Assembly: GCA_964016885.1 (NCBI GenBank) | Contig: OZ024750.1 | Location: 22,754,001 to 22,818,000, forward strand | Length of the DNA: 64,000 bases | Direction: 5' to 3' | Source: Eledone cirrhosa | Lineage: Eukaryota | Part shown: piece by piece, positions 12,201-52,000 of the stretch | Layout: every line of letters begins with the position of its first letter | How positions within the stretch are numbered: the first letter of the stretch is position 1 | Made by a program: the position numbers and the translations under genes | Notes under the pieces: model-generated | Told to the model about the DNA's origin: nothing | Database searches by the model: none | The model's input: only the letters and a program-made list of their open reading frames with translations

Positions 12201-15200
12201 GCTTTCTGAGTTCAAATCTTGCTAAGACTAACTTTGCCTTTCATCCTTTTGGAGTTGATAGAACCAGTCCATTCTTCCCTTTACCTTATAACTATGGTAA
12301 TTTAACTTCAGTTGTTTACACAGAAGAATTAACACAGTAAATTCATAGCTCATCTCATTCTATTCATGTAGAGTTAATTTCCTCCCTAAGTGCAACCGAA
12401 AGAAGGCATGCACTATTGCAGCAGAAAATAAAGGAACTGAAGCAAATGGCTCGGAATGCTGAGAGAAACCGGGTGAACCTACAGAAGGGATTAGAAAACC
12501 AAAGACTTGGTGCAGTTGATTATACTCCATCATCAGAACCACGGGTCTCTCTCAACCAGTTTACAGGGATTGAACGGAGAATATTACAACACTCTGTCAT
12601 TGAAAATATAGCTAAAGTAAGTTCTCTGGTTTGATCCATTCCAGATCAATACATTTGAATAAACAAAGCCATTTTTTAGATGTTTTCTGCTAAATCATCA
12701 CAAGATCTTAAGAGATAAACAACTGCACCTTATTCATTTCCCCATGTTCATAAAATAAGTATCAGATTTTAATGTTATTCTGTTTTATGAAGTTTGAAAT
12801 TTTCTATTTCTATAGGATCGAATTCTGGTGTTAGAGCAGTCATTGAAAATTGAGAAGAAACAAAAAGATATACTGGAAATGCGTGTTTTAGAGGTAAGAG
12901 AAGGAACTTTTTATTTAATGTATATTTGGTTTATATACTTATTATAAACCAAATATACATTAAATAAAAAGTTTGTGATGTGTATAAAGCTTGTTATGGA
13001 ACTCACAAACCTAACCCCCACTTTAGCAAGGAAAATAGCTAAAGATAGCTAGAGTATGATGGGAAAAACAATGTTTGGGGGGGGGGGGGGGGGTTATTTG
13101 TGTGTTGATTTGTTGGTAATATGTGAAGGTGCATGAATTGATGGTTAGGGTGTTTGGCTCATAATCACAAGGTCATGAGTTTGATTCCCAGCAGTGCATT
13201 ATATCCTTGAGCAAGGTACTTTATCTCATATTGCTCCAAACCACTCAGCTGAAAAAAGTTGAGCTGTACCTGTAATTCAAAGAGCCAGCCTTGTTATACA
13301 TTGTGTCACACTGAATCTCTATAAGAAGTACATTAAGAGAACACGTGTCTATAGAATGCCCAGCCACTTGCTCATTGATTTCAAGAGCAAGCCATTCCAT
13401 TAATCAAATAACTGGAATACTCATTGTCAGAACCAATGGAGGTAAAACAACAATAATTAATGACATTTTATGAAGCTGTTTAACATTTTGTTAAAGACAA
13501 TAATTAACTTTCTTATTAATTATCTGATGTTTAGAACATAACAAACAGTTCTGTATTGGTGAACCAAGGGTGGTTTCATGTAGTTTGATATCAAAAGGGT
13601 TAATTTTCAAATTTCAAATGATCTGTTTAACTTTTATAGTTATTTTTTACAATTTTCTTTTTTCAGTTATCAACCCAATTTAATCATATAGATACAAATG
13701 TACAAAATGTTTTTGCTTCCTTGAAATCAGAAAAGGCTTTCCTTCTGCCCTCTGTAGGTGAGATAACAAGCTCACCTCTAAACAACTGTCATAACCTCGA
13801 TGACCTGTTTGTTCACCTCCAGAAAGAATTTGCTCAAATGACATGGTAGGAACCAACATTTCTTCTGAAACCTTGTTATGTTTGAGATTTGTCAACTTTT
13901 AAAATATTTTATTACATACGAATTTTTAAGGAAATATATAAATTCATATATAAATTCATGTTTGTATGAGCATGTGTGAGAAAGAGAAAGAGATTGCATG
14001 ATTGGTTGAAATTTAAATTCTTCAAAAATTAAAGTTTCTAGTGCATTAAAAGTGAACACATATAAATATATGATAATTGCTGTTTAACAGTGCAAAATAA
14101 GTTTTGGAACATTATACTTTTTAAATATTAGGTTAAATTTTTGTTTAATAAAATCTTTTAACCCTTGTTTTAAAGTATTCATTTTTATCTAAAAACCTTA
14201 GTAATGAAATAATTAATAATAATCCCTAAAAATTCTCAATTGCAATATAATGTATTTCATTAGAAATACTGTCATGAAAGGGTTCAAATTGAATCTTTCA
14301 AAAATCTTTGAGAACAGGAAACACCAGTATTTAACGGAGCAGCTTAATAGAACTACTGATAGAAAATTACAAGAGGATGTTGAAATTGAACTTGACAACC
14401 TAGTGACTCAGATGGAAATTAAAGCAATGCAAATGATTAAGATTCGCAAAGCTCTTGAAAAGGTAAGAAAACTTATTGCTAATGTCTCTGTTTCTGTCTC
14501 TGTAACTCCCTCCTCCTCCTTCTCCACCACCACCACCACCTTCACCGTATCACTGTTTATTCAATTTTATCTATTTGTCTTCCTTATGTCAACTTACCAC
14601 ATGTAAATCCACTGTCTACCCTGAGTCCACTTATCATCATCATCACCATTTTATGTCCGCTTTCCCATGTTTGCATTGGTTGGACAACGAGAATGATGAT
14701 TATGTTGGCAGGAGTTTTCTGGCTGTATGCCCTTCTCATTACCAACAACTTTGCAGTGTAAACTGAGTATTTTATTATGCCATTGGTTTACAGGGGTGCA
14801 TGTACCCTGTACAGTTTTATTTATTACTCCAGTTCTCTGAGTTCAAATCCCACCAAGATCAACTTAAACTTTCATCCATTTGGGATCAATAAAGTACATT
14901 CAGGAAGGTTGATTGGTGGAATTGTTAAAACATGTTAGTGTACACATATGTGTGTCATGCCTTAGTGGTTAGGGTTAGGGTGTTCTGCTCATGGTCGTAA
15001 GAGAGTGAGTTCATTTCATTAACTGGGCGACATGTTTTTCTGAGCAAGATGCTTTATTTGACGTTGCTCCAAGACACTAAGCTGGCAAAAATTGGATGTA
15101 CCTATAATTCAAGGGGCCAACCTTGTCATACTGAATCTCTTTGAGAACGATGTTAAGTGTGCATAAGTCTATGGAATGCTCAGCCACTTACATGCATGTT

Positions 15201-17868: not shown

Positions 17869-19262
17869 ACCGAACGCGAGAGAGGTGTACATCTATTTCC
17901 CCCGCCTTTTTCTACAAAGCTGATCGTTTCTATTTGGTTTAGAAGTCAGATTCGATGATAACACTCAATTTTTTTTATTAGTAGTAATAACACTCAATTT
18001 TTTATTATTATTAGTAAAGAAAGCTCCGAGGGTACCCGCATTCCACCTCTGTTTTCCGAGTGAAAAAGTCCTTTGCGGCATGTTCGGAGTTCAGATTAGT
18101 TTAAAGCACATACAAAAAAAAATAGGAAAAATAATTATTTCCCCATTTTCTTACTATGTTGTATAACATTTTTTGCAGAGGAATTAGATATAATTGAGTA
18201 ACACACCAGAAGGTAACTTGTTTGTTTTTGTTCTGTTTAACGTAATGCTACTGAACCTAGAATGTAGGGTTAACGGTATTACAACAGCTAAACACAACAG
18301 AGTGAATTTGTTACCCGTTTTAACACCAAACACCTGTTTATTAGGTGCCTTTGTGCTACTATGTAACAAACATTCGGGCCAAGGATTAAAAAATCAAATA
18401 GCGATGATAAATAATTGTTTCTACTTTAGACACAAGGCCATCAATTTGAAGGGGGGGGGGGGACACGATTGATTCGACCACAGTGCGTTACTGGTACTTT
18501 TATGTTATCGACCCCGTAAGATTGAAAGGCAAGGCTAAATAATGACTGAAGCATCTCAACATAATTGAAGAAGTTTTGGGAAATAAAGAATGGCCATAGA
18601 GAAGAGATGGTGAGATAAGAAAGAACGACATGGGAAATATTGAGAGATGATGAAAGGAAATTAAAGAAACATCAATATGTTTTAACTATATATATAAACA
18701 CGATTTACAAAAACAAATTAATCAAAGAAATAAAATCATGTACACTCGATTACACACGACAGCGGAGAATGCTGGTGTTTCTCTCTAAATATGTTTGAGG
18801 CAAGCCTCAAACTTATCGTATTGTCGCGATGGAATAGCCTAGCATCCCTTCGTGTCTTCAACAATGTTGAAAAAGAAAAACGTCGTTGTTTGCAGCCCAG
18901 CCACCCTGAATGTCTCGAATGTCACAGAGGGGAAAAAAATAGCTTACCTATAATACATATTTCAGAATTTTATTCGGTAAGTAAGAGATATACGAGAGAA
19001 AAGAAGACAGCTAAAAATGTTGACGAAAATAAATATTGACAAGTATAACAATGTATATGTGAGTCGAATGAAGAAAGAGAGAGAGAGAGAGAGAGAAATA
19101 TGAAGGTAAATACGATGCGACAATAAATCAAGGCTATAAAAAGAAGCATACGAAGAAAGGAAAAATATAAAGAGAGTGTGTGAAAGAAGTAGAGAGTGTG
19201 ACTGTAACTACGAAGGAAGCTCTGTCCTCGATTCTCACAAGAACTATTGAGATATCCTTATT

Positions 19263-21762
19263 ATGTCGGGTTACTCAGATAACAATGTACAACCAGTCAT
19301 TTTTCTCTCGCATGGTGGTGGACCTTCATTCTTCATGGACGTCAAGAAATATCCAGGTATGCGTGGGATGGACCGGGACTCTGATGCTGCAGAATTCCTA
19401 CGACAGCTATCAAGAACTCACTTGAAGAAACAACCGAAGGCAATCCTGGTCATTAGTGCCCACTGGGAAGAAAATATCCCATGCGTCATGGAGGATCAAA
19501 AGCATTCCTTGTACTTCGACTACTACGGATTTCCCAAGAGCATGTATGAACTGAAATGGCCCGCGGTAGGAGCTCCAGCTGTCGCTGCTCGTGTCTCCGA
19601 ATTATTCAAAACACACAGTATACAGAGCAAGCAAGTACGTGATCGAGGTTTAGATCATGGGACGTTTGTGCCCCTCATCTTGGTTTGGCCAGAGGCCGAT
19701 ATACCAAGTAAGTAAACATCAGGTCTATATTGCGTTTATAGCCTATTTTGTCCGTCTGTCAAAAACATTGTAAAATTTTCATTTAGAATTCATCTAACAG
19801 ATGTTGGGGGGGGGGGTTCTAAAATGCTTTCGTTCATACCAGAAATGAACGTTTTCTATTTATCTGGCCGTCTGTTTATCTTTCTATCTACTTGTCTCTC
19901 TAATCCATCTGTCTCTCTTTATTTATCTCTCTACTTACCTCTATCCACCTGCCTCTGTTTATCACTATCTACTTGTCTCTATTTAGCTCTATATCTATCT
20001 CTATGAAAGATGGGTGAAAGTGGCGAGAATGGCCCGTGTGAATGGGCCTTCACTCTACATCAGACTATAGGTGAGGAAGATGAAAGACCAAGGGAGCACC
20101 CCTTCTCTGTGCTCCTGAGGAGAAGGGTTGCACACTTTTTTCGGGGGTGTGTGCGACCCCCCAAGGCGCCTCCTCTCTATTGAGGATTTTGTTAAAAATT
20201 TTATTTTTTGTTATATCTTATTTTATTTTTATATTTTGTTATTGCCTCCTCCTTATTGAGGACGCCTTTTTGTGTAAACTCCCCCCTTTGTACTTGTCCC
20301 ACTTTTGATGCCCTAGTGGCAAATAAAAGAAACATATCTATCTCTGAATCCACCAACAGAGCTATGTTATGGTATGGTGAAGAAAGCGAATATTACTTAT
20401 TCCGTCCTCAAACCACTCCTTATCTTAAAACATGGAGTACATATAACGCGACTGTGAAGTGTCTTTAATCAAAAGTCTGCTCGATTATAGCTAAGCAACA
20501 TCAACAATAACAGATCAATGAACGACGTAGCTCAATATAAACAAAGACAAATATTATCATTCTTTACTGGATTTAACCATCGCTACATCTAAGGGTTTCA
20601 ATCGATCGTATTGATCCCAGTTCTAATTTCAGTCTGGTATATATTTAATCGATCTCTATATATCGGATTTCCACGTAACTTTTTTTTTACACTAAGGACG
20701 TAACCTGAGCACAAATTAGCAAATGCTGGTTCTGTGGATTGACGGTCATCATTTTTTAAGTATGGAAGGATATCAGAGATGTAATCAAATTCGTGAATAT
20801 TTTTATGGAGAGTATTGACAGACACAGCCGGGTTGGAAGTGGTATCAAGACTGGTGAATTTAGGATCAGTGGGCTGGAATTTACAGACGACAAGCACTTG
20901 ATAAGTTTCCTGCCCAGTGTTGTAAAGGCTGAGACACTCATCATCTCAAGGAATCATGCGCAGTGCACTTTACATGTGAATGAAGTTCAATATCTTGGGG
21001 CTGTGTTCACAAGTGATGGGAGGCAGGAGGCTGAATTAAATGCAAGAATTGCAGGAGCTAGTGCAGTAAATAGGAATATTTTAAAACTGGCAGTTTTAAA
21101 ATAGGAATATTTTAAAACTGGCAGTTTTATCACAAAACCAACGGAGGTTTCAAGCAAGTTGGTATCAAAAGAATGAAATTATGTTTCGAACACCAGACAT
21201 AATTATATTACTAAATTCTTGATTAATTTCAAAATTGTTTGTAAATCATAGGGAATGTCTTTTATTAGAAATATAGTGACAAGCGGGTTAATTATGAGAT
21301 ATATTAAGATTGGATTCTATGTTATACTCTTTTTTCTAATTTATTTCAGTACTTCAAGTATCATTAAAGAACAATTTGAATATCACCAAGCACCAAGAAA
21401 TTGGTGAGGCATTATCAGATCTACGTAAAGAAGGAATACTTATCGTTGGATCTGGTTTTATGACTCACTCTGATGAGAAAGCAAAATCTACTGATGATGT
21501 GTTTGAATGGGCAACTGAATTCAAGGCATGGGAACGTGATGTATTCTGCAACCCTGAATTATCCACAACAGAAAGAAAAAAACGAATACTCGAATGTGAA
21601 TCTTTTCAGTTTTTCCACAGAGCTCATCCTCGTATTGAGCACTTTCTACCATTGGTCGTTGCTTCTGCAGCAGCTGGTTATGTCAGTGGAGAGGCAATCT
21701 TTTCTCAGTTTGTATCACCTAGTTTATTGTTGGAACATATATTGTTCAAATCTGACCCTTAA
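19263..21762 (+). CDS. Extradiol ring-cleavage dioxygenase, LigB / 4,5-DOPA dioxygenase (DODA/YgiD)-like, 285 aa, 2 coding exons
   Basis: Exon 19263-19707 (donor GTAAGT, phase 1) joins exon 21350-21762 (acceptor TTTCAG) in frame. Family motifs: FLSHGGGP, ILVISAHWE, YFDYYGFP, RGLDHGTFVPL, WPEADIP-ILQVSL, IGEALSDLRKEGILIVGSG-x3-H, HPRIEHFLPL. Confidence 0.93.
20003..20333 (+). mobile_element. 5'-truncated L1/Tx1-like LINE end with 12-bp target-site duplication, in the dioxygenase intron
   Basis: ATATCTATCTCT at 19991-20002 and 20334-20345. The insert encodes ERWVKVARMARVNGPSLYIRL* and ends AATAAAAGAAAC. Confidence 0.6.
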
Positions 21763-24700
21763 TGAAATATATTCTCAGGTAGTTAAGGAATACACTTCAG
21801 TTATGTAGTTTCGAGTTCAGTCCTACTGCATGGCACATTGGGCAAGTTTCTTCTATAATAACCTTGGGTTGACCAATGTCTCAGACAGGAATCGTGTGGA
21901 AGAACTTTGTGTATATATGTATACATATGTGTGTACTTGTCTGTGTTTATATATATATCCTGTAACCTACTTTCTAGGTCATTTTGGTACCACAATAAAA
22001 AGCACCTAGTCCACACTGTTAATGTGTTTGGGGTTAAGAAGGGCATCCAGCCAGAAACAGTTCTGTATGAGCAAGGCATGGCCATCTGATCTGACTTGTC
22101 TCACAACAGGACAACTCATTTAACCCACGCTAGCGTAGAAAAATGAATGTTAAACGGTGATGATGATGATGATTGGCTTCTACAGTTTCCATCTACAAAT
22201 TTGACACACAAGGCATTAGTCAATCTCAGGCTGTAAAAGACACTTTCCCCAAGGTACCACATAATTGGAGCAAACCTAAAAAACACATGATTTCAAAGCA
22301 AACTCCATAAGCATATAACCATATCTGTGTCTATGATATATATTGTAAATTAAAAAATATTCACATGTACACGAATTCCAATGAAAATAATTTTTATTCT
22401 ATTAAAAAATACATTCATATATATATGTATATATACATACAATGTTTCAAGGAGGTTTATTTATATCTATTACAAAAATACTACATCATAAAAAAGGAAT
22501 ATGCTTCAATATTTACATCTTTTCTTTTCTTTTTATTTTCAAGCTAATAATTAAAGAAGGATATAAATGTACTCAGATGGTAATCTTCTTCTGAAATAGA
22601 ACTTTTTACAAACTAACTGTAGCCACAATATATCTTTATGATAAAGGTAACTATGGTCCATGAGGCCCTTAATTCCTGATAGAATTGTCGGGGCACCGTT
22701 GTGGCATTTAAACCTGGTGGAGCCCATCTCTCTCCAGGTCTGAACACAGCCGATTTCCAAGGAGAGAGAATAAGAAAGACGAAGTGAGAAAGAGATAGAA
22801 AAGAAGAATCAACTCTAGTACTTGATTTTATCAACCTCAAAAGGTGAAGGGCAAAGCTGACCTTGGTTGGATTTGAACTGAGAGCCAATGATTCTGCCAA
22901 TTTGCCACTTTCAGAGGGAAATATTGGTGCCACAATAGTTAGAGGTTTATTCTATTGATAGTCAACCAGATTAACGTCATAAAGACACATCTATACTAAT
23001 GTGATTTTTAACCTTTTTCTGATCATATTTCTAATGAAATACAGTTTTTCCTTTTAATTAATTTAGAAAATAAATTTTTTTTAAGGATTTAGCATATTAC
23101 TTGGTTATCAAATGTGTATTAAATTTTTAAAAAAGAAATTCTTTTTAACTATCTCTAGTAATTTTATTCCTCAATCTTTGGTAAATATAAAGAAAACAAA
23201 GGAACAGATCAAGAAACTGTTTCCATTCGTCATTCCATTGCTGATAGTATCTGCTGGTTGCATCTCCTGACAGCTGGAGGTGAGATGTTAACTCAGAATG
23301 CACAGAACCAGAAAGCAGAAACCACAAAGCATCCCATCTGACTAACAATTCTTCCAATCCATTGACCTGGACTGGTATTTTATTTATCAACCCCGAAAGG
23401 ATGAAAGGCAAAGTTGGTCTCAGCAGAGTCAGTGAAGTGGAACAAATACTGAGGCATTTAATCCAACACTAACGACTTCACCAATATGACTAATAAATGT
23501 AATATAACTATAAATTTAATGGACCTCTAATTAGTTTATGCTGAAGAAGTATAACTAAACTGAAACATCAGGTGTATGTGAATATTAGATGACTATATAT
23601 TACAGTGGAAACATAATTAAATTTAATATGTAAGTGAAAATAATATGGTGTCATTCATTAATGAAAGAATACATTTTTAGCAAGACCTCTCTCTTGCAAG
23701 AAAAACTGAACAACCAATAAGAAAAAAGTTTACAATGCTCATTTTCTTGAGTTATTGGTATATCAGGCTTGTGTTCAGATCATAACAGAAATGTTCCTGT
23801 GAAGAATGATGGGAAGTTTAATTCAAATATGAACATTTTAAAATAGGTGGTTTTATATCATAGAATCAGAAGCTGTTGGTATCAAAAGAGCTAGGCAAAT
23901 TCATAAGAAAATATTTATATATATTGATATATTTTTCAAACAGTTCTCTTTTGGTAAAATATAAAGATATCTAAAAATTACTTCTCACATGATGTAATTT
24001 GTATTTTGGTCATTCCTTTATTAACACAACTCCTCCGATCATCCCATGACTAAGCACTACCAAATATTGTTTTCTAATTTAGGCACAAGGCCAGCAAATT
24101 TGGGTGAAGGGCAAAGCTTATTAAATTATTGTCAGCACTTGACTGGTACTTTATTTTATCGATCCTGGAAGAATGAAAGGCAAAGTTCATCTTTTGTGGA
24201 ATTTGAACTCAGAATGTAAAGAGCCAAAATAAATACTGTGATAGCATTTTATCTGATGCTCTACCAATTCTGCCAATCCATCACTACCAAATATAAAATC
24301 TGCTTAGAGACACATCAGGCAGGAACTTATCCCAGTTGAGCTACTCAAAGTAGTAGAATTCTCCTAGGATAGGTCACCAGTCCATCACAAGATTAACCCC
24401 ACAGCTGCTGCTACTGGTATTGTGCTTGGCACAAGGACCCAATGTGCTATCTGGTCCAAGGATTGAACCCGCAGCATTACGATCATGATATTAACACCCT
24501 TCACATAATATACTCTATGTTTATATTATACTCTTTTATTAATTTCCAGGTGATCTTATGAGGGGAAACTATTTAGCTAAACCTACAAGAATACATTGGA
24601 TAAGATAGTCCTAGCCAATGCAATCATGGAAAAAAAAAAAAGAAATCACCGCTCACACTTATGTATGTCTACCTGGCCTCCTATGAGGGGTGCATCTCAT

Positions 24701-27338: not shown

Positions 27339-30300
27339 TCATGAATTAACAGATATTTGAAATGGTAAGAAGAAAGACTGATCAGTGGCATTAATTATGG
27401 TAGTTGATGGGTTTCCAATAGTGTTTGTGAAAGTAGTGACATTATTAGTTATTATAGGCACTGGACTGTAAATAGACTCAACACAAGGACTAACAAATTG
27501 TGTGTCAATTAAGTCAGGCATTAGGTGTTCTAGAGCAGATTCTGAGTGTTTTACACTATAGTATTTTTTGTACGGCTTAGTTCTTACTTTGAGAAATTCT
27601 TCTTTTGATAAAACATGAATCCCTGCAGCAGTAAGTAATTTGCCATGTCTAGTTTTCAAATGTCTTTTGTATGTGTTACGTGTTTTGAATTTTTGCAGAC
27701 AGTCGCTGCATTCAAATGGAGTCTCCCCAGTGTGTCGTCGCAAATGTTCCTAGACAAAAGAAAAGAAGAGAAGGAGAATTAATATTTTGCTAAAGCTATA
27801 ATATACTTTGAAAAAGGGAAGAATAGAAGATGATTGTCACATCAAATCAAGGAAACAAAATTTCCATTGGTTTTTCCCTTGCTAATATTATCTGCTGTTT
27901 GTACCTCCTCACAGAAGGAAGTGGGATTTGGGCTCAAAATTCACAGAGCCAGATCAAATACTACAAAGCAGCCCATTTGGCTCTAAAACAATTTTGCCAA
28001 TCAACTACCTCTGGACTGGTATTTTATCAATCCTAAAAGGATAAAAGGCAGAGATGACCCCAGCAAGATTTGGATTCAGAGCACAGAGAGCTGGAACAGA
28101 TACTGATGCATTTAACCTAATGCACAAATGACTGCTAATTTGCTAAGTTATAATACTAAAGTCATTAATATAAGTCAAACACAAAATTGTCCTCAGCGAT
28201 ATTTGAACTTAGAGTACAGTGAGCTTGAACAAATACCAAGGAATTGAACCCATGCCTGAACAACTTTGCCAGTTTGACATCCATAAATGACAACTAAAAG
28301 GAAAAGGAAAAGTCACAAGTTTACCTTAAAATGGCTTGGATGTCTAAATTTTCTACCACAATCTTTGCAAGTGAAGCGGCTCTGGTTGTTGTGAATTAAC
28401 ATATGATAGTTGAGACTGTGTTGTCTTGTAAATGTTGTATTGCACAGAAGGCACACAAATGGTTTAATTCCTAATTAAAATTGAGAAAATTAATATAATT
28501 AACAGAAATACATATTTCTATTTTGATGCATAAATTTATAGAATTTTATTGTTTCATTACATTAAACATTTCAATTATGTCTTTAATTTTGTTCCATTGT
28601 TATGGTTGCTTAAAGCACCCCCCACCCACCCACATACACACACAAACACACAAAAAAAAAACTCAGATGCCATGTCAAATAGAATAATGTTATAGATTAG
28701 TAAGGAGTCATAATATATATGATATATATAAACTCCATGATCATCAGCTGTCAAAATAGACATTGTCAGTTTTGAATTCTACTGACAGTACTGCTAGTCA
28801 ACTCGAGGTCACAGTGTTCGACAAGGCAGTCAAACACCATCTTAGTGTGCTTTGTGAAACACATTGACCTAGAATGAACCAGCAGTACCATTAGTAGGGG
28901 CTGAAACTGTATCTACATTTCAATGACTGATGATCGATGATCATGGAGTACCTGCTGCTAATTTTGCAATATTATCCATGACACATGCAGCTTCCCCATT
29001 CTTCTGTTGTTAATTTGCACCATATTACCAAAACCATTCTCCTCCTTTGAATGAAACAGTTCTAGTCCTGTAGAAGCCATTTTCATATTAAATAGTGTAT
29101 ATACTCTACTATGTATTGAGTACCTTACTTACTGTCGTTACTCCTGATTGAACCTGGGATACACACACACACAGAGATATATGAGCCGTTACTGACCACG
29201 TCAGTACTTAATCAGAGGTACTGTCCCCCTAAACCAGCCAGGAGTCATGTTTTGCTAATATACATTCCAGTTTTGACACAATTTTTACAGCTGGATGTCC
29301 TTCCTAATGCCAACTGCTTTACAGTATGTACTGGGTGCATTTTATCATGGTACTGGCATCTGGGATATTGTCATATCCTCGACACAACTGAAAAGTTTTC
29401 TCAACCCTTTTTTGGCTACATGGTTACTGGTGATGGTGCAGATTGCAAAATACTAACAGGAAAATACTAACAAGGAAACAAATTTATGAAAGCAAAACAC
29501 CCAGTTGAAGAAAAGCTTAGAGTGAAAAATTACAACTAAGCATTGTTGTGATTATAAGAATGAAAAAAATGACAATTTTTAAGATACTTACCAGCATGAC
29601 TACGATAGTGATACATTAGAGTTGCTGCAGCTGTAAAGGTTTTGTCATCACAGATTTGACAAACAAGAGCTAGTTTGTCATCTTTCCTACGACTTTTCAG
29701 TTCTCTAATGCAGCGTAGTGCTGTTCTCTACAACATACAGGAGATATAATAATGGTTTCTGATTTAGGCAGAAGGTGAACAATTTTAGGGGAGGAGAAAG
29801 TCAATTAAACTGACCCCAGTGCATTACTGGTACTTTATTTTATCGACCTCTGTAAGGATGAAAGGCAAAACTATCGAATTCATACAGGAGATATAATAAT
29901 AATAATTTCTTAATTGGCCACAGGGGCCCAAAGTGTTATGAGCATTACAAAGATGAAAAAAAAAACACTAAGTGGAGTTTACATTGAGTAAAAGGAAGGG
30001 GACATCAACAAAGAGAAAACAGTAGATATAACAATAAGAGTAATTGTAATAATGATAACAATACTAAACAATAACAAATGTCAACTAGGCAAAGTTCCCC
30101 AATAGGAAGGGGCTGCATTGTAGGTCCTCTAGAAGTCTGCTTAAACTGTCCTAGTTAACACTGAGGCACTCCCAGGCCATAATTGCTCATACCTTCAACT
30201 AATCCACTATAGAAAGTAAGCATTGATAATATTAATACTTACCCTTTCTAATTCAGCAGCTGTATTCTTTTCAATATTTTTTTTCTTCTTTTTAGTACAA

Positions 30301-49023: not shown

Positions 49024-52000
49024 ATGATGGACCTGATTGAGGAATCACCTCACCAACCTAAAAAGGACTCATTTCAACTAGAGTTAGCAGCTAAGATGGA
49101 AGAAAGACGGGTTCGGGGTTTGGGGTCAGGATTTTCTCCCCGTGATTCCAATAACAGTTGTTGCAGCAACGATGAAGGTAAATCATAATTATCAGTGTTG
49201 TCATCGTTATCATCATCATCAACATTATCATCGTCATCATCATTAACATTAACATCATCATCTTCATGAATATCAACATCATCACCACAATCATTTCAGC
49301 ATCACCAACATCATTATTTTACATTGGTTTTTCCATACTGGCATGGTTTGGGCAGGTCATTATTTGTAGCTTCTCTCCTCCTAAACAGTTCAGAGGACCC
49401 CACCTTTTTTACATACATTTCTGTTTTGGCATAGTTTCTATAGCTAGGTGCTCTTAGTAATGCAGAGTGTATTGGGTAATGCAGGGTGTTATTGTGGCAT
49501 CAGCACCAGAGAGATTGTTATGTACTTGATGTGACTAAAGAGTCCAGTCAACACTATGTTGTTATCTTTCAGACATTATGCACTTTACAGAGTGTACTGG
49601 GTGCATTTCATTGTGGCACCACATCTGAAAGGTTGCCTCATACTAAGGCAAACTTGATCAAGAATGAAACTAGAAAGAAGTGGCAGCTAAGGTGGACAGA
49701 TATGTATAATTCTAAGTTGGGTCAAGTGTTAAACTGGACAACAGACTTGACTCCACTAAAAATACCAACAGCCCAGGTGGTGGTGTTAAACTGGACAATA
49801 GAGTGGACTTCATTAAAAATACCCACGGCCCAGGTAGTGGTGTTAAACTGGACAACAGAGTGGACTTCATTAAAACAACCAACAGCCCAGGTGGTGGTGT
49901 TAAACTGGACAACAGAGTGGACCACTAAAAATACCCACAGCCCAGGTGGTGGTGTTAAACTGGACAACAGAGTGGACTTCATTAAAACAACCTATGGCCC
50001 AGGTGGTGGTGTTAAACTGGAGAACAGAGTGGACTTCACTAAAACTACCCAAAGCTCAGGTGTTGGTGTTAAACTGGACAACAGAGTGGACTTCATTAAA
50101 ACAACCTATGACCCAGGTGGTGGTGTTAAACTGGAGAACAGAGTGGACTTCACTAAAACTACCCAAAGCTCAGGTGGTGGTGTTAAACTGGACAACAGAG
50201 TGGACTTCATTAAAACAACCTATGGCCCAGGTGGTGGTGTTAAACTGGAGAACAGAGTGGACTTCACTAAAACTACCCAAAGCTCAGGTGGTGGTGTTAA
50301 ACTGGGTGACAGTTTAAGTCTACTTATGCAAATTTTCTTTCTTTATAGTTTAAATTTTCTTTTCATGTTTGTTGCCAAATTCATTTTGTCTATTATCTGC
50401 CTTTTTTAAATGTGAAATGGGATGGGGTGTGCAAACTGCATCTTGGGAATGATATGAAGATGGGACGTGTGAAAACATTTTGTTACCTAGGAGACATTTT
50501 GAATGGAGAAGTGGGACCAGACTCTAGAGTGAGATGTGTGTAGAAGTTCCGAGAACTGAGTGGCATGGTAATGTGGAGGGAAATGTTGCTGAAATTGAAA
50601 GGAAAGTTGTATGTTGCATGTATGAGAAGAGCTATGATTTATAGGAATGAGAAATGGAGGAAGAAATAAAAGCCAGAGGAGGTGGATACTGACAATAGAG
50701 CAAATTCTAAATGCATGCCCTGCTGCCCTGCAATGCTACTCCATGCTTTAGCAGAGAAAACAGCCTTATAATGCTTCTATTGTGTTGTGCCTTCTTTTCA
50801 TTGTCCATTTCTTTATATTTTCAGATAATTTACCTATGGGCATGAGTAAACTTTCTAAGCATAAAACATTCAATTTGAATGATACATTGAGGTTTGATAG
50901 TACAAAATATATGTTTGATAAGCAGACACTGGATACAGATTTTTTGAATAAATCAAATCAGTATAGAAGCACGTTGCAGCCAAATGACGTCTCTGGGAAG
51001 AACTCCAAAATGAAACATTCTCAGTTGAGAGAGGCTAATATTGATGAGTTTTTAAATAGCTCAACAGATTCTTTACAGATGAAAAAAGATCTACAATACT
51101 CATCATCAAATATTCTAGAGATGTTACCAGAACATTCTTTATCCAGGTATTGAATACTTTAATAGTTTGCTTTTTTAATATTTTGAAAGTATTTTAACCT
51201 TTTCCTTATCATATTTCTAATGAAAGACACTAACTATAATTTTCAAATAATTTTGAAAATTATCAAGAATTTAAAAGGATTTAGTAATGTAACTAACTTT
51301 CTTGTTATTTGTTTGATGTTTGGAATAAAATTATGATGGAAGGTTTTTAGATATAAACATGTTAAAAGAAGCAGTTTAGTTATCAAAGGGTTAATCAAGA
51401 ATTACATTTAAGAGAGAGACATTGCTGGAATTCCAGACTTACGGCTTGTGATTATTGAATTCATACAGTTTGATAAACAAGTCATTGTACTCAGTAGCTC
51501 AGTCTAACAAGAAAATGAATACATATACCACTTCAGGACGAAGCATGTTGTCCTTGAGTGAGCTCCTTGTTAACACTTCAGCTTTAACCCTTTAGCATTT
51601 ACATTACTCTATATATACTATTATATTTTCATGGTAAAGGCTTTATCTCACATAATCTTGAATCTATGAGACTTTGATATTGTTTATTTTGAGAACAATA
51701 CCTTAAAATCAGTATGAGCAGCCAGTTTGAACAGTAATAGGTAAGAGAATTCTGGTTTAAATATGGCTGGTTTAAATGCTAAAGGGTTAATAACATAACT
51801 ATTAGAATTTGCACACCTTGTCAATCCATTTGATCATGGATGTAGGGTGATGACATAACACATCATCACCACAACCACAGTATTATGTCTGTTTTGCATG
51901 CTTGTATGGGTTGGACAGATTATCATGTTCTGAAACTAGACCAGTCAGATGACCATGTCCTGCTCATGTGTTTTATTTTGGCATGATTTCTATGGGTGGA

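What the first reader, a model, noticed from the sequence alone, without database searches (positions are those of the whole stretch)
19263..21762. Intact DODA/LigB-type ring-cleaving dioxygenase in an animal, with the usual HNL motif replaced by HSDE
Seen: a complete 285-aa spliced gene flanked by animal genes, so not bacterial contamination. All family histidines are present (SHG, SAHW, DHG, GSGFMTH, EHFLP). After the catalytic His it reads H-S-D-E-K. Known: this family is typical of bacteria, fungi and plants. Most members have H-N-L here, while betalain-producing 4,5-DOPA dioxygenases have H-P-(S/A)-(N/D)-x-T-P. Cephalopod ink and skin are rich in DOPA and dopamine. Inference: a possible catechol or DOPA ring-cleavage route (betalamic-acid or muscaflavin-like pigment, or detoxification) in a cephalopod, perhaps convergent and possibly of ancient horizontal origin.
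Basis: partly seen in the sequence, partly recalled or inferred. Interest (0 to 1): 0.75.

Follow-up and report, generated by a model that had tools for sequence, protein, structure and literature searches.

The report
Mollusc-wide DODA-type ring-cleaving dioxygenase
This is an intact two-exon octopod gene of an old DODA/LigB enzyme group shared by cephalopods, snails and bivalves, likely an iron enzyme that opens catechol rings; the flagged HSDE stretch is a variable loop, not a pigment signature.

Summary
The gene is real: exons 19263-19707 and 21350-21762, a GT-AG intron, 285 aa, and all five iron/catalytic histidines of beet DODA. It is not a cephalopod novelty. Named relatives came from 26 mollusc species (5 cephalopods, 8 gastropods, 13 bivalves). 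They form one clade, and the intron position is shared with bivalves, a second octopod copy and an unnamed, intron-bearing sister group.

HSDE is not a motif. Three Octopus orthologues (79-80% identical) read HSSE, and none of 38 mollusc-clade sequences has HSDE, HNL or the betalain-type H-P. What is conserved is an acidic residue plus His on the last strand (E277/H278: 38 and 37 of 38; His in 4 of 423 others), beside a residue that lines the substrate pocket in beet DODA.

Trees place the clade among protist-like sequences, but a bacterial sister is not rejected (p=0.27), so horizontal origin is open. Animal DODA/LigB genes are already known in tardigrades and moths.

Best reading: a cytosolic Fe(II) extradiol dioxygenase for general catechol breakdown, substrate untested. 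A betalain-like pigment route is possible but unsupported.

The parts
19135..19141 (+). TATA-like box (TATAAAA), 128 nt before the ATG; function untested
19263..19707 (+). Exon 1 coding part (148 codons + 1 nt); carries H17 (19311-13) and H67 (19461-63), predicted Fe ligands, and H132 (19656-58), predicted catalytic
   Evidence: roles mapped from beet DODA H15, H53, H119
19708..21349 (+). Phase-1 GT-AG intron, 1642 nt, same position as in the second octopod copy, bivalves and the sister group
19991..20333 (.). High-copy repeat inside the intron; absent from contigs of runs X1-X3, with 12 letters fitting both sides of the joint (like a target-site duplication)
21350..21762 (+). Exon 2 coding part to the TAA stop; carries H188 (21466-68, predicted catalytic), H241 (21625-27) and H246 (21640-42, predicted Fe ligand)
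   Evidence: beet DODA H175, H229
21466..21477 (+).
21733..21738 (+). E277-H278 on the last beta-strand: the conserved mollusc-clade signature
21994..21999 (+). AATAAA, candidate polyadenylation signal; untested

Best explanation
The locus is an intact copy of an old, mollusc-wide DODA/LigB gene that likely encodes a cytosolic Fe(II) extradiol dioxygenase, predicted to open the ring of catechols (dietary phenolics or DOPA/dopamine-derived compounds) for breakdown rather than to make pigment. Shown: gene structure, family, fold of a 79%-identical orthologue, conserved histidines, mollusc-wide clade with a shared intron, variable HSDE loop. Inferred from beet DODA: H17, H67 and H246 hold Fe(II); H132 and H188 bind and deprotonate the catechol; O2 attack gives a seco-product that may cyclise on its own. 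Inferred: the mollusc-specific E277-H278 reshapes the pocket and, rather than HSDE, sets substrate preference. The natural substrate is untested.
For: Five histidines match beet DODA H15/H53/H229 (Fe) and H119/H175 (essential by mutagenesis) and are invariant in all mollusc-clade rows that reach them. The model of the O. vulgaris orthologue (pLDDT 89) matches 8IN2 at TM 0.83 and at Z 34.3, rmsd 1.7 over 258 residues. Named relatives in 26 mollusc species. Mollusc clade SH-aLRT 97-98; the branch between molluscs and sister group is 100/100. Against the second genomic copy, synonymous sites are saturated while dN is 0.33 and 0.26. Beet DODA pocket residues T17, D254 and Y260 map to G, V270 and L276 here (offsets). 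The family is functionally diverse and often only weakly active on DOPA. No signal peptide is apparent at the N-terminus (by eye).
Against: No enzyme assay and no tissue expression data. Retention in all three large mollusc classes and a fixed E/D-H pair point to one specific endogenous substrate rather than general detoxification. The position of H278 in the pocket is inferred from strand alternation, not measured. Fungal and bacterial family members without the beet pocket residues still cleave DOPA in vitro, so their absence does not exclude DOPA as substrate.
Confidence: 0.58

Rival explanations
1. The mollusc clade is a re-tooled subfamily with one dedicated endogenous substrate that is not a simple catechol (for example an o-aminophenol such as 3-hydroxyanthranilate or 3-hydroxykynurenine, or a modified DOPA). 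The new E277-H278 pair would bind the substrate or add a metal ligand.
For: Acidic residue at 277 in 38 of 38 and His at 278 in 37 of 38 mollusc-clade rows, against His in 4 of 423 others. The Asn after the catalytic His is kept in only 4 of 38 against 365 of 423. Sister-group loci L036 and L052 also pair His at 278 with loss of that Asn. Aminophenol dioxygenases share the fold (Z about 22-23).
Against: Outside the clade, 0 of 56 rows without the Asn have His278 and all 4 His278 rows keep the Asn, so general coupling is not seen. The three-His metal site is unchanged. Sequence identity to aminophenol dioxygenases is only 13-16%.
Confidence: 0.25
2. One reading: a DOPA or dopamine 4,5- or 2,3-cleavage route to betalamic-acid- or muscaflavin-type pigments in cephalopod skin or ink, with HSDE converging on the plant motif.
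For: The closest solved structures are betalain DODAs. [quoted passage not shown] A tardigrade DODA1 is reported to make betalains. Octopods carry two copies.
Against: D190 is private to this species: three Octopus orthologues have S. H-P occurs in 0 of 38. Introducing D-D did not confer full DOD activity in Parakeelya, and active beet DODA 8IN2 has H-P-S-N-G. The gene is just as conserved in clams, oysters and snails. Neolecta has an active, expressed DODA but no betalains. The search listing for betalain plus cephalopod showed no title reporting such pigments.
Confidence: 0.12
3. Bacterial contamination or a decayed pseudogene.
For: Bacterial relatives reach 42-43% identity.
Against: Spliceosomal intron at a conserved position, megabase contig, animal neighbours, 79-80% identical Octopus orthologues, open frame, saturated dS with low dN.
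Confidence: 0.01

Closest known systems
Annotated mollusc '4,5-DOPA dioxygenase extradiol-like' proteins (O. sinensis XP_029658119.1, O. vulgaris CAI9716913.1, Haliotis, Pomacea, Pecten, Crassostrea)
   Same: Direct orthologues: 79-80% identical in Octopus, about 50% in snails and bivalves; same intron, same E/D-H signature.
   Different: Only the loop letters (HSDE against HSSE). The names are automatic annotations; no functional study turned up in my searches.
Plant 4,5-DOPA extradiol dioxygenases (beet 8IN2 and 29KY, Mirabilis 9J2L)
   Same: Fold (Z 33-34), three-His iron site, two catalytic His.
   Different: No H-P-x-x-x-T-P loop; T17, D254 and Y260 are not kept; HGGGP N-terminal loop; E-H on the last strand; 30-35% identity.
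E. coli YgiD (2PW6), Arabidopsis LigB and Neolecta NiDODA (class I, H-N-L type)
   Same: Same family and metal site; these cleave DOPA weakly or at both the 2,3 and 4,5 bonds.
   Different: The mollusc clade has lost the Asn after the catalytic His and gained E/D-H.
Other animal DODA/LigB genes: tardigrade DODA1 (Li et al. 2024, seen only as cited in PMC13263728 and PMC13389832) and lepidopteran LigB (PMC5704228, table row)
   Same: LigB/DODA-family genes in animals, reported as horizontally acquired.
   Different: Neither appeared among the named rows, so they are probably separate acquisitions (inferred; they were not in my trees). The mollusc gene is far older and spans three classes.

Membership tests
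DODA-type class III extradiol dioxygenase (LigB, PF02900) | Profile match to LigB/DODA | tested here: met
   Exon 1 alone passes the Pfam cut-off (64.2 against 26.3 bits); exon 2 scores 23.5; both hit PRK10628, though single exons stay under its whole-protein cut-off
DODA-type class III extradiol dioxygenase (LigB, PF02900) | LigB alpha/beta fold | tested here: met
   Model of the 79%-identical orthologue P0001: TM 0.83 and Z 34.3 (rmsd 1.7, 258 aligned) to 8IN2
DODA-type class III extradiol dioxygenase (LigB, PF02900) | Three-His metal site plus two catalytic His | tested here: met
   H17, H67, H246, H132 and H188 present and invariant in the clade (residues defined)
DODA-type class III extradiol dioxygenase (LigB, PF02900) | Fe(II)-dependent extradiol ring cleavage of a catechol | not testable with these tools
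   Needs an enzyme assay
Betalain-forming plant DODA (class II) | H-P-(S/A)-(N/D)-x-T-P loop after the catalytic His | tested here: not met
   Window reads HSDEKAK; H-P in 0 of 38 mollusc-clade rows
Betalain-forming plant DODA (class II) | [quoted passage not shown] | tested here: inconclusive
   D190-E191 present in the window gene, one place earlier than in plants, but S-E in three Octopus orthologues
Betalain-forming plant DODA (class II) | Pocket residues T17, D254, Y260 of beet DODA | tested here: not met
   Map to G, V270 and L276 by alignment offsets, assuming no indel in the last hairpin
Betalain-forming plant DODA (class II) | High L-DOPA 4,5-cleavage activity and betalains in the organism | not testable with these tools
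   Needs assay and LC-MS
Class I LigB (H-N-L type) | H-N-L after the catalytic His | tested here: not met
   0 of 38 mollusc-clade rows and not the window gene (motif as described)
Horizontally acquired gene | Nested inside a non-animal donor clade with alternatives rejected | tested here: inconclusive
   Falls among protist-like rows with weak, shifting support; an animal-plus-bacteria clade is not rejected (p-AU 0.27); no plant, fungal, tardigrade or insect rows in the trees

The most novel reading that the evidence does not exclude
Molluscs have carried, since before the split of bivalves, gastropods and cephalopods, a horizontally acquired ring-cleaving dioxygenase with a rebuilt pocket (E/D-His on the last strand). 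It opens DOPA or dopamine to betalamic-acid- or muscaflavin-type products, giving an overlooked pigment or antioxidant pathway in shells, skin and ink, and octopods keep two diverged copies.
Probability: 0.12. Interest if true: 0.8.

Novelty: new member of a known kind. Interest (0 to 1): 0.36.

Why it matters
As a single gene it is ordinary: an orthologue of proteins already annotated in many molluscs. The useful result is the clade. A catechol ring-cleaving enzyme that most annotated animals seem to lack has been kept across three mollusc classes, with a fixed E/D-His signature and a patchy animal distribution. My ten literature searches found no study of it. Molluscs handle much DOPA and dopamine (ink, byssus, periostracum; recalled knowledge), so finding its substrate would show whether they have a catechol-degrading or pigment route that is not on the map. 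The test is cheap.

Tried and rejected
Expression of the window gene: no RNA holder listed. The four runs laid covered intron sequence and showed no exon-exon joint, and most of exon 2 had no cover; neither is evidence for or against expression.

HSDE as a conserved or convergent motif: rejected.

Contamination or pseudogene: rejected.

General coupling between loss of the loop Asn and gain of His278: not seen outside the mollusc clade and two sister loci.

Bacterial gene neighbourhoods as a clue to substrate: in 80 genome loci no true neighbour family occurred in more than 8; a 46-locus cluster is the opposite-strand shadow of the gene itself.

Naming the sister group: cluster look-ups gave no organism names, a profile search gave no named member, and the protein atlas returned only general LigB clusters.

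The careful 77-row tree did not finish; the quick trees are quoted. Timing of the octopod duplication is unresolved: the second copy groups with cuttlefish at SH-aLRT 94-95 under the mixture model, but the two octopod copies group together at 75/71 under LG+G4.

Exon 1 of the second copy was not found in 20 kb upstream of its exon 2 on C18.

Earlier scan findings: none.

Literature searches found no paper on a mollusc DODA. The scallop paper's 'betalain biosynthesis' enrichment is attributed to a tyrosinase-like gene, with no mention of a dioxygenase. The data files of the metazoan HGT compendium could not be read and may list this gene. Most subscription journals are not searched.

Full report
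Observation. The finding is in the sequence as described. An ATG at 19263, preceded in frame by a stop, opens a 445-nt exon that ends at A|GTAAGT; a pyrimidine-rich acceptor at 21349 opens a 413-nt exon that ends in TAA at 21762. The spliced frame is 285 aa with no internal stop. Both exons hit Pfam LigB and NCBIfam PRK10628, and the only solved structures matched by sequence are three plant DODAs and E. coli YgiD. The window lies at 22.75-22.82 Mb of contig C10 in a 3.0-Gb genome. Of 16 neighbouring frames scanned, two gave weak Cep57 hits upstream and one gave C2H2 zinc-finger hits downstream, all under curated cut-offs. With the spliceosomal intron this excludes contamination.

Catalytic core. 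In beet DODA (PMC11926856, parts 2-4 of 6 read) H15, H53 and H229 bind iron, H119 and H175 are essential, and T17, D254 and Y260 line the DOPA pocket. The window protein has the five histidines as H17, H67, H246, H132 and H188. A model of the O. vulgaris orthologue P0001 (79% identical; the spliced window protein itself was not folded) has pLDDT 89 and matches 8IN2 at TM 0.83 and Z 34.3, rmsd 1.7 over 258 residues. By alignment offsets, assuming no indel in the last hairpin, T17, D254 and Y260 correspond to G, V270 and L276, so the beet DOPA-binding set is not kept.

Distribution. Searches with exon 1 and with a mollusc profile returned named relatives in 5 cephalopods, 8 gastropods and 13 bivalves including Solemya. 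Only the best 120 rows of about 8000 candidates are listed per search. The molluscs form one clade (SH-aLRT 98, 97 and 98), in which cephalopods and most bivalves group by class, and gastropods with weaker support; Solemya is unresolved. Unspliced read-through fragments from the octopus, cuttlefish, oyster and mussel-like clusters break off right after the same proline, and the second octopod copy has its donor at the same base, so the intron is inferred to predate the split of bivalves and cephalopods. Full-length cuttlefish-cluster proteins on contigs of 1.2-1.5 kb imply spliced transcripts in a relative (inferred). This genome holds a second copy, 60-66% identical, with exon 1 on C903 and exon 2 on C18; both pieces group with Argonauta and O. 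bimaculoides second copies. That they are one gene split by the assembly is inferred. Between the copies synonymous sites are saturated and dN is 0.33 and 0.26.

The HSDE loop. I aligned the window protein with 38 mollusc-clade proteins (27 named; 11 unnamed, assigned by tree, cluster or, for P0166, similarity), 7 sister-group proteins, 371 other hits of 230-400 aa and 45 bacterial frames recovered from 80 genome loci. Shorter fragments and redundant cluster members were left out. HSDE occurs in 0 of 461. O. vulgaris, O. sinensis and O. bimaculoides orthologues read HSSE, the second copy HSFE or HTFE, and snails and bivalves HGG, HKG, HAG, HRM, HGK, HNG and others. H-N-L is 0 of 38 and H-P is 0 of 38. 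Position 189 has 2.7 bits of entropy, in the 90th percentile of the protein. The loss of H-N-L is thus a clade-wide relaxation, and the Asp is private to this species. The D-E pair does recall the D-D/E of confirmed plant DODs (PMC4493658, passages and section 19), but there the swap alone did not give full activity, and active 8IN2 lacks it.

What is conserved instead. Position 277 is acidic in 38 of 38 and position 278 is His in 37 of 38 mollusc-clade rows, against His in 4 of 423 others. Both lie on the last strand, 275-281, next to the place of beet Y260; by strand alternation H278 would face the same side as that pocket residue (inferred, coordinates not available). Two sister-group loci also have His there and lack the loop Asn, but across the other 423 rows the two features are not coupled.

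Origin. The sister of the molluscs is an unnamed group (SH-aLRT 97-98 for the pair) whose genomic copies L026, L036 and L052 have a GT donor at the same base, with GT-AG introns of 413 and 631 nt in L036 and L052. It is a eukaryote, probably another animal lineage (inferred); no tool named it. Beyond that, the clade sits among protist and unnamed rows (Pyxidicula, Mallomonas, Chromulina, Phytophthora) with weak, shifting support, while the bacteria form a separate branch. A tree joining the animal clade to the bacteria is 15 log units worse but not rejected (p-AU 0.27; 53 rows, LG+G4). Plants, fungi, YgiD, tardigrades and insects were not in the trees. No named annelid, arthropod, chordate or cnidarian appeared in the listed rows, which suggests a patchy animal distribution, but the lists are capped. 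I put an old transfer and vertical descent with many losses at roughly even odds.

What is known. Animal DODA/LigB genes have precedent: tardigrade DODA1, linked to betalains (passages of PMC13263728 and PMC13389832; the primary paper was not read), and a lepidopteran LigB of unknown function (one table row of PMC5704228). In vitro DOPA cleavage is widespread and need not mean pigment: Neolecta expresses an active DODA but has no betalains (PMC13263728, abstract and first part of the Discussion), and low ancestral activity is treated as promiscuity in plants (PMC12138177, passages). Ten searches found no study of the mollusc gene (listings seen, plus passages of PMC4332496 and PMC13342648). 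The HGT compendium's data files could not be read and may bear on novelty.

Verdict. A real, intact member of the DODA/LigB family and an orthologue of annotated mollusc proteins; not a class II betalain DODA by the tested features. Most likely it is a cytosolic Fe(II) catechol ring-cleaving enzyme of general catabolism (0.58), then a re-tooled enzyme with one dedicated substrate (0.25), then a pigment route (0.12). The flagged motif is noise; the mollusc-wide clade with its E/D-His signature is the lead worth an assay. Interest 0.36.

Noticed in passing
G000:C903:44570-45013 (L002) and G000:C18:32091507-32091911 (L004): Second, apparently intact copy of the gene, 60-66% identical, closer to the cuttlefish protein; its two exons lie on different contigs, probably an assembly break. 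It reads SAHWSE in place of SAHWEE, as do the Argonauta and O. vulgaris second copies.
   Followed up: partly
L026, L036, L052; proteins P0072, P0170, P0172, P0173, P0175, P0277, P0388, P0422, P0423, P0456: Unnamed eukaryotic sister group with the same intron position; it has no named member in the collections searched and is the key to dating the gene in animals.
   Followed up: partly
window 19991-20333: High-copy repeat in the intron, absent from contigs of runs X1-X3 (one sample), with 12 letters fitting both sides: looks like a polymorphic SINE insertion. A similar repeat lies in the intron of the second copy (L002, about 2440-2810; seen by eye).
   Followed up: partly
window 20760-21101 (+): 114-codon frame in the intron that resembles a LINE reverse-transcriptase fragment (recalled resemblance; no Pfam hit; high repeat depth).
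   Followed up: no
protein search rows: No named heterobranch snail, limpet, nautilus or chiton among listed rows although weaker bacterial hits are listed: possible losses within molluscs. Scallops show two copies (Argopecten, Ylistrum, Mizuhopecten) with D-H in place of E-H.
   Followed up: no
window about 12341-14603 (+) and 27342-27749 (-): Neighbours: a Cep57-like gene upstream and a C2H2 zinc-finger gene downstream on the opposite strand (weak Pfam hits).
   Followed up: partly
window 49480-50406 (+): Long open frames built of a tandem repeat in two frames; probably a minisatellite, not a gene.
   Followed up: no
P0424: Phytophthora palmivora protein that appears to hold two partial DODA units in tandem; may be a gene-model fusion.
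   Followed up: no
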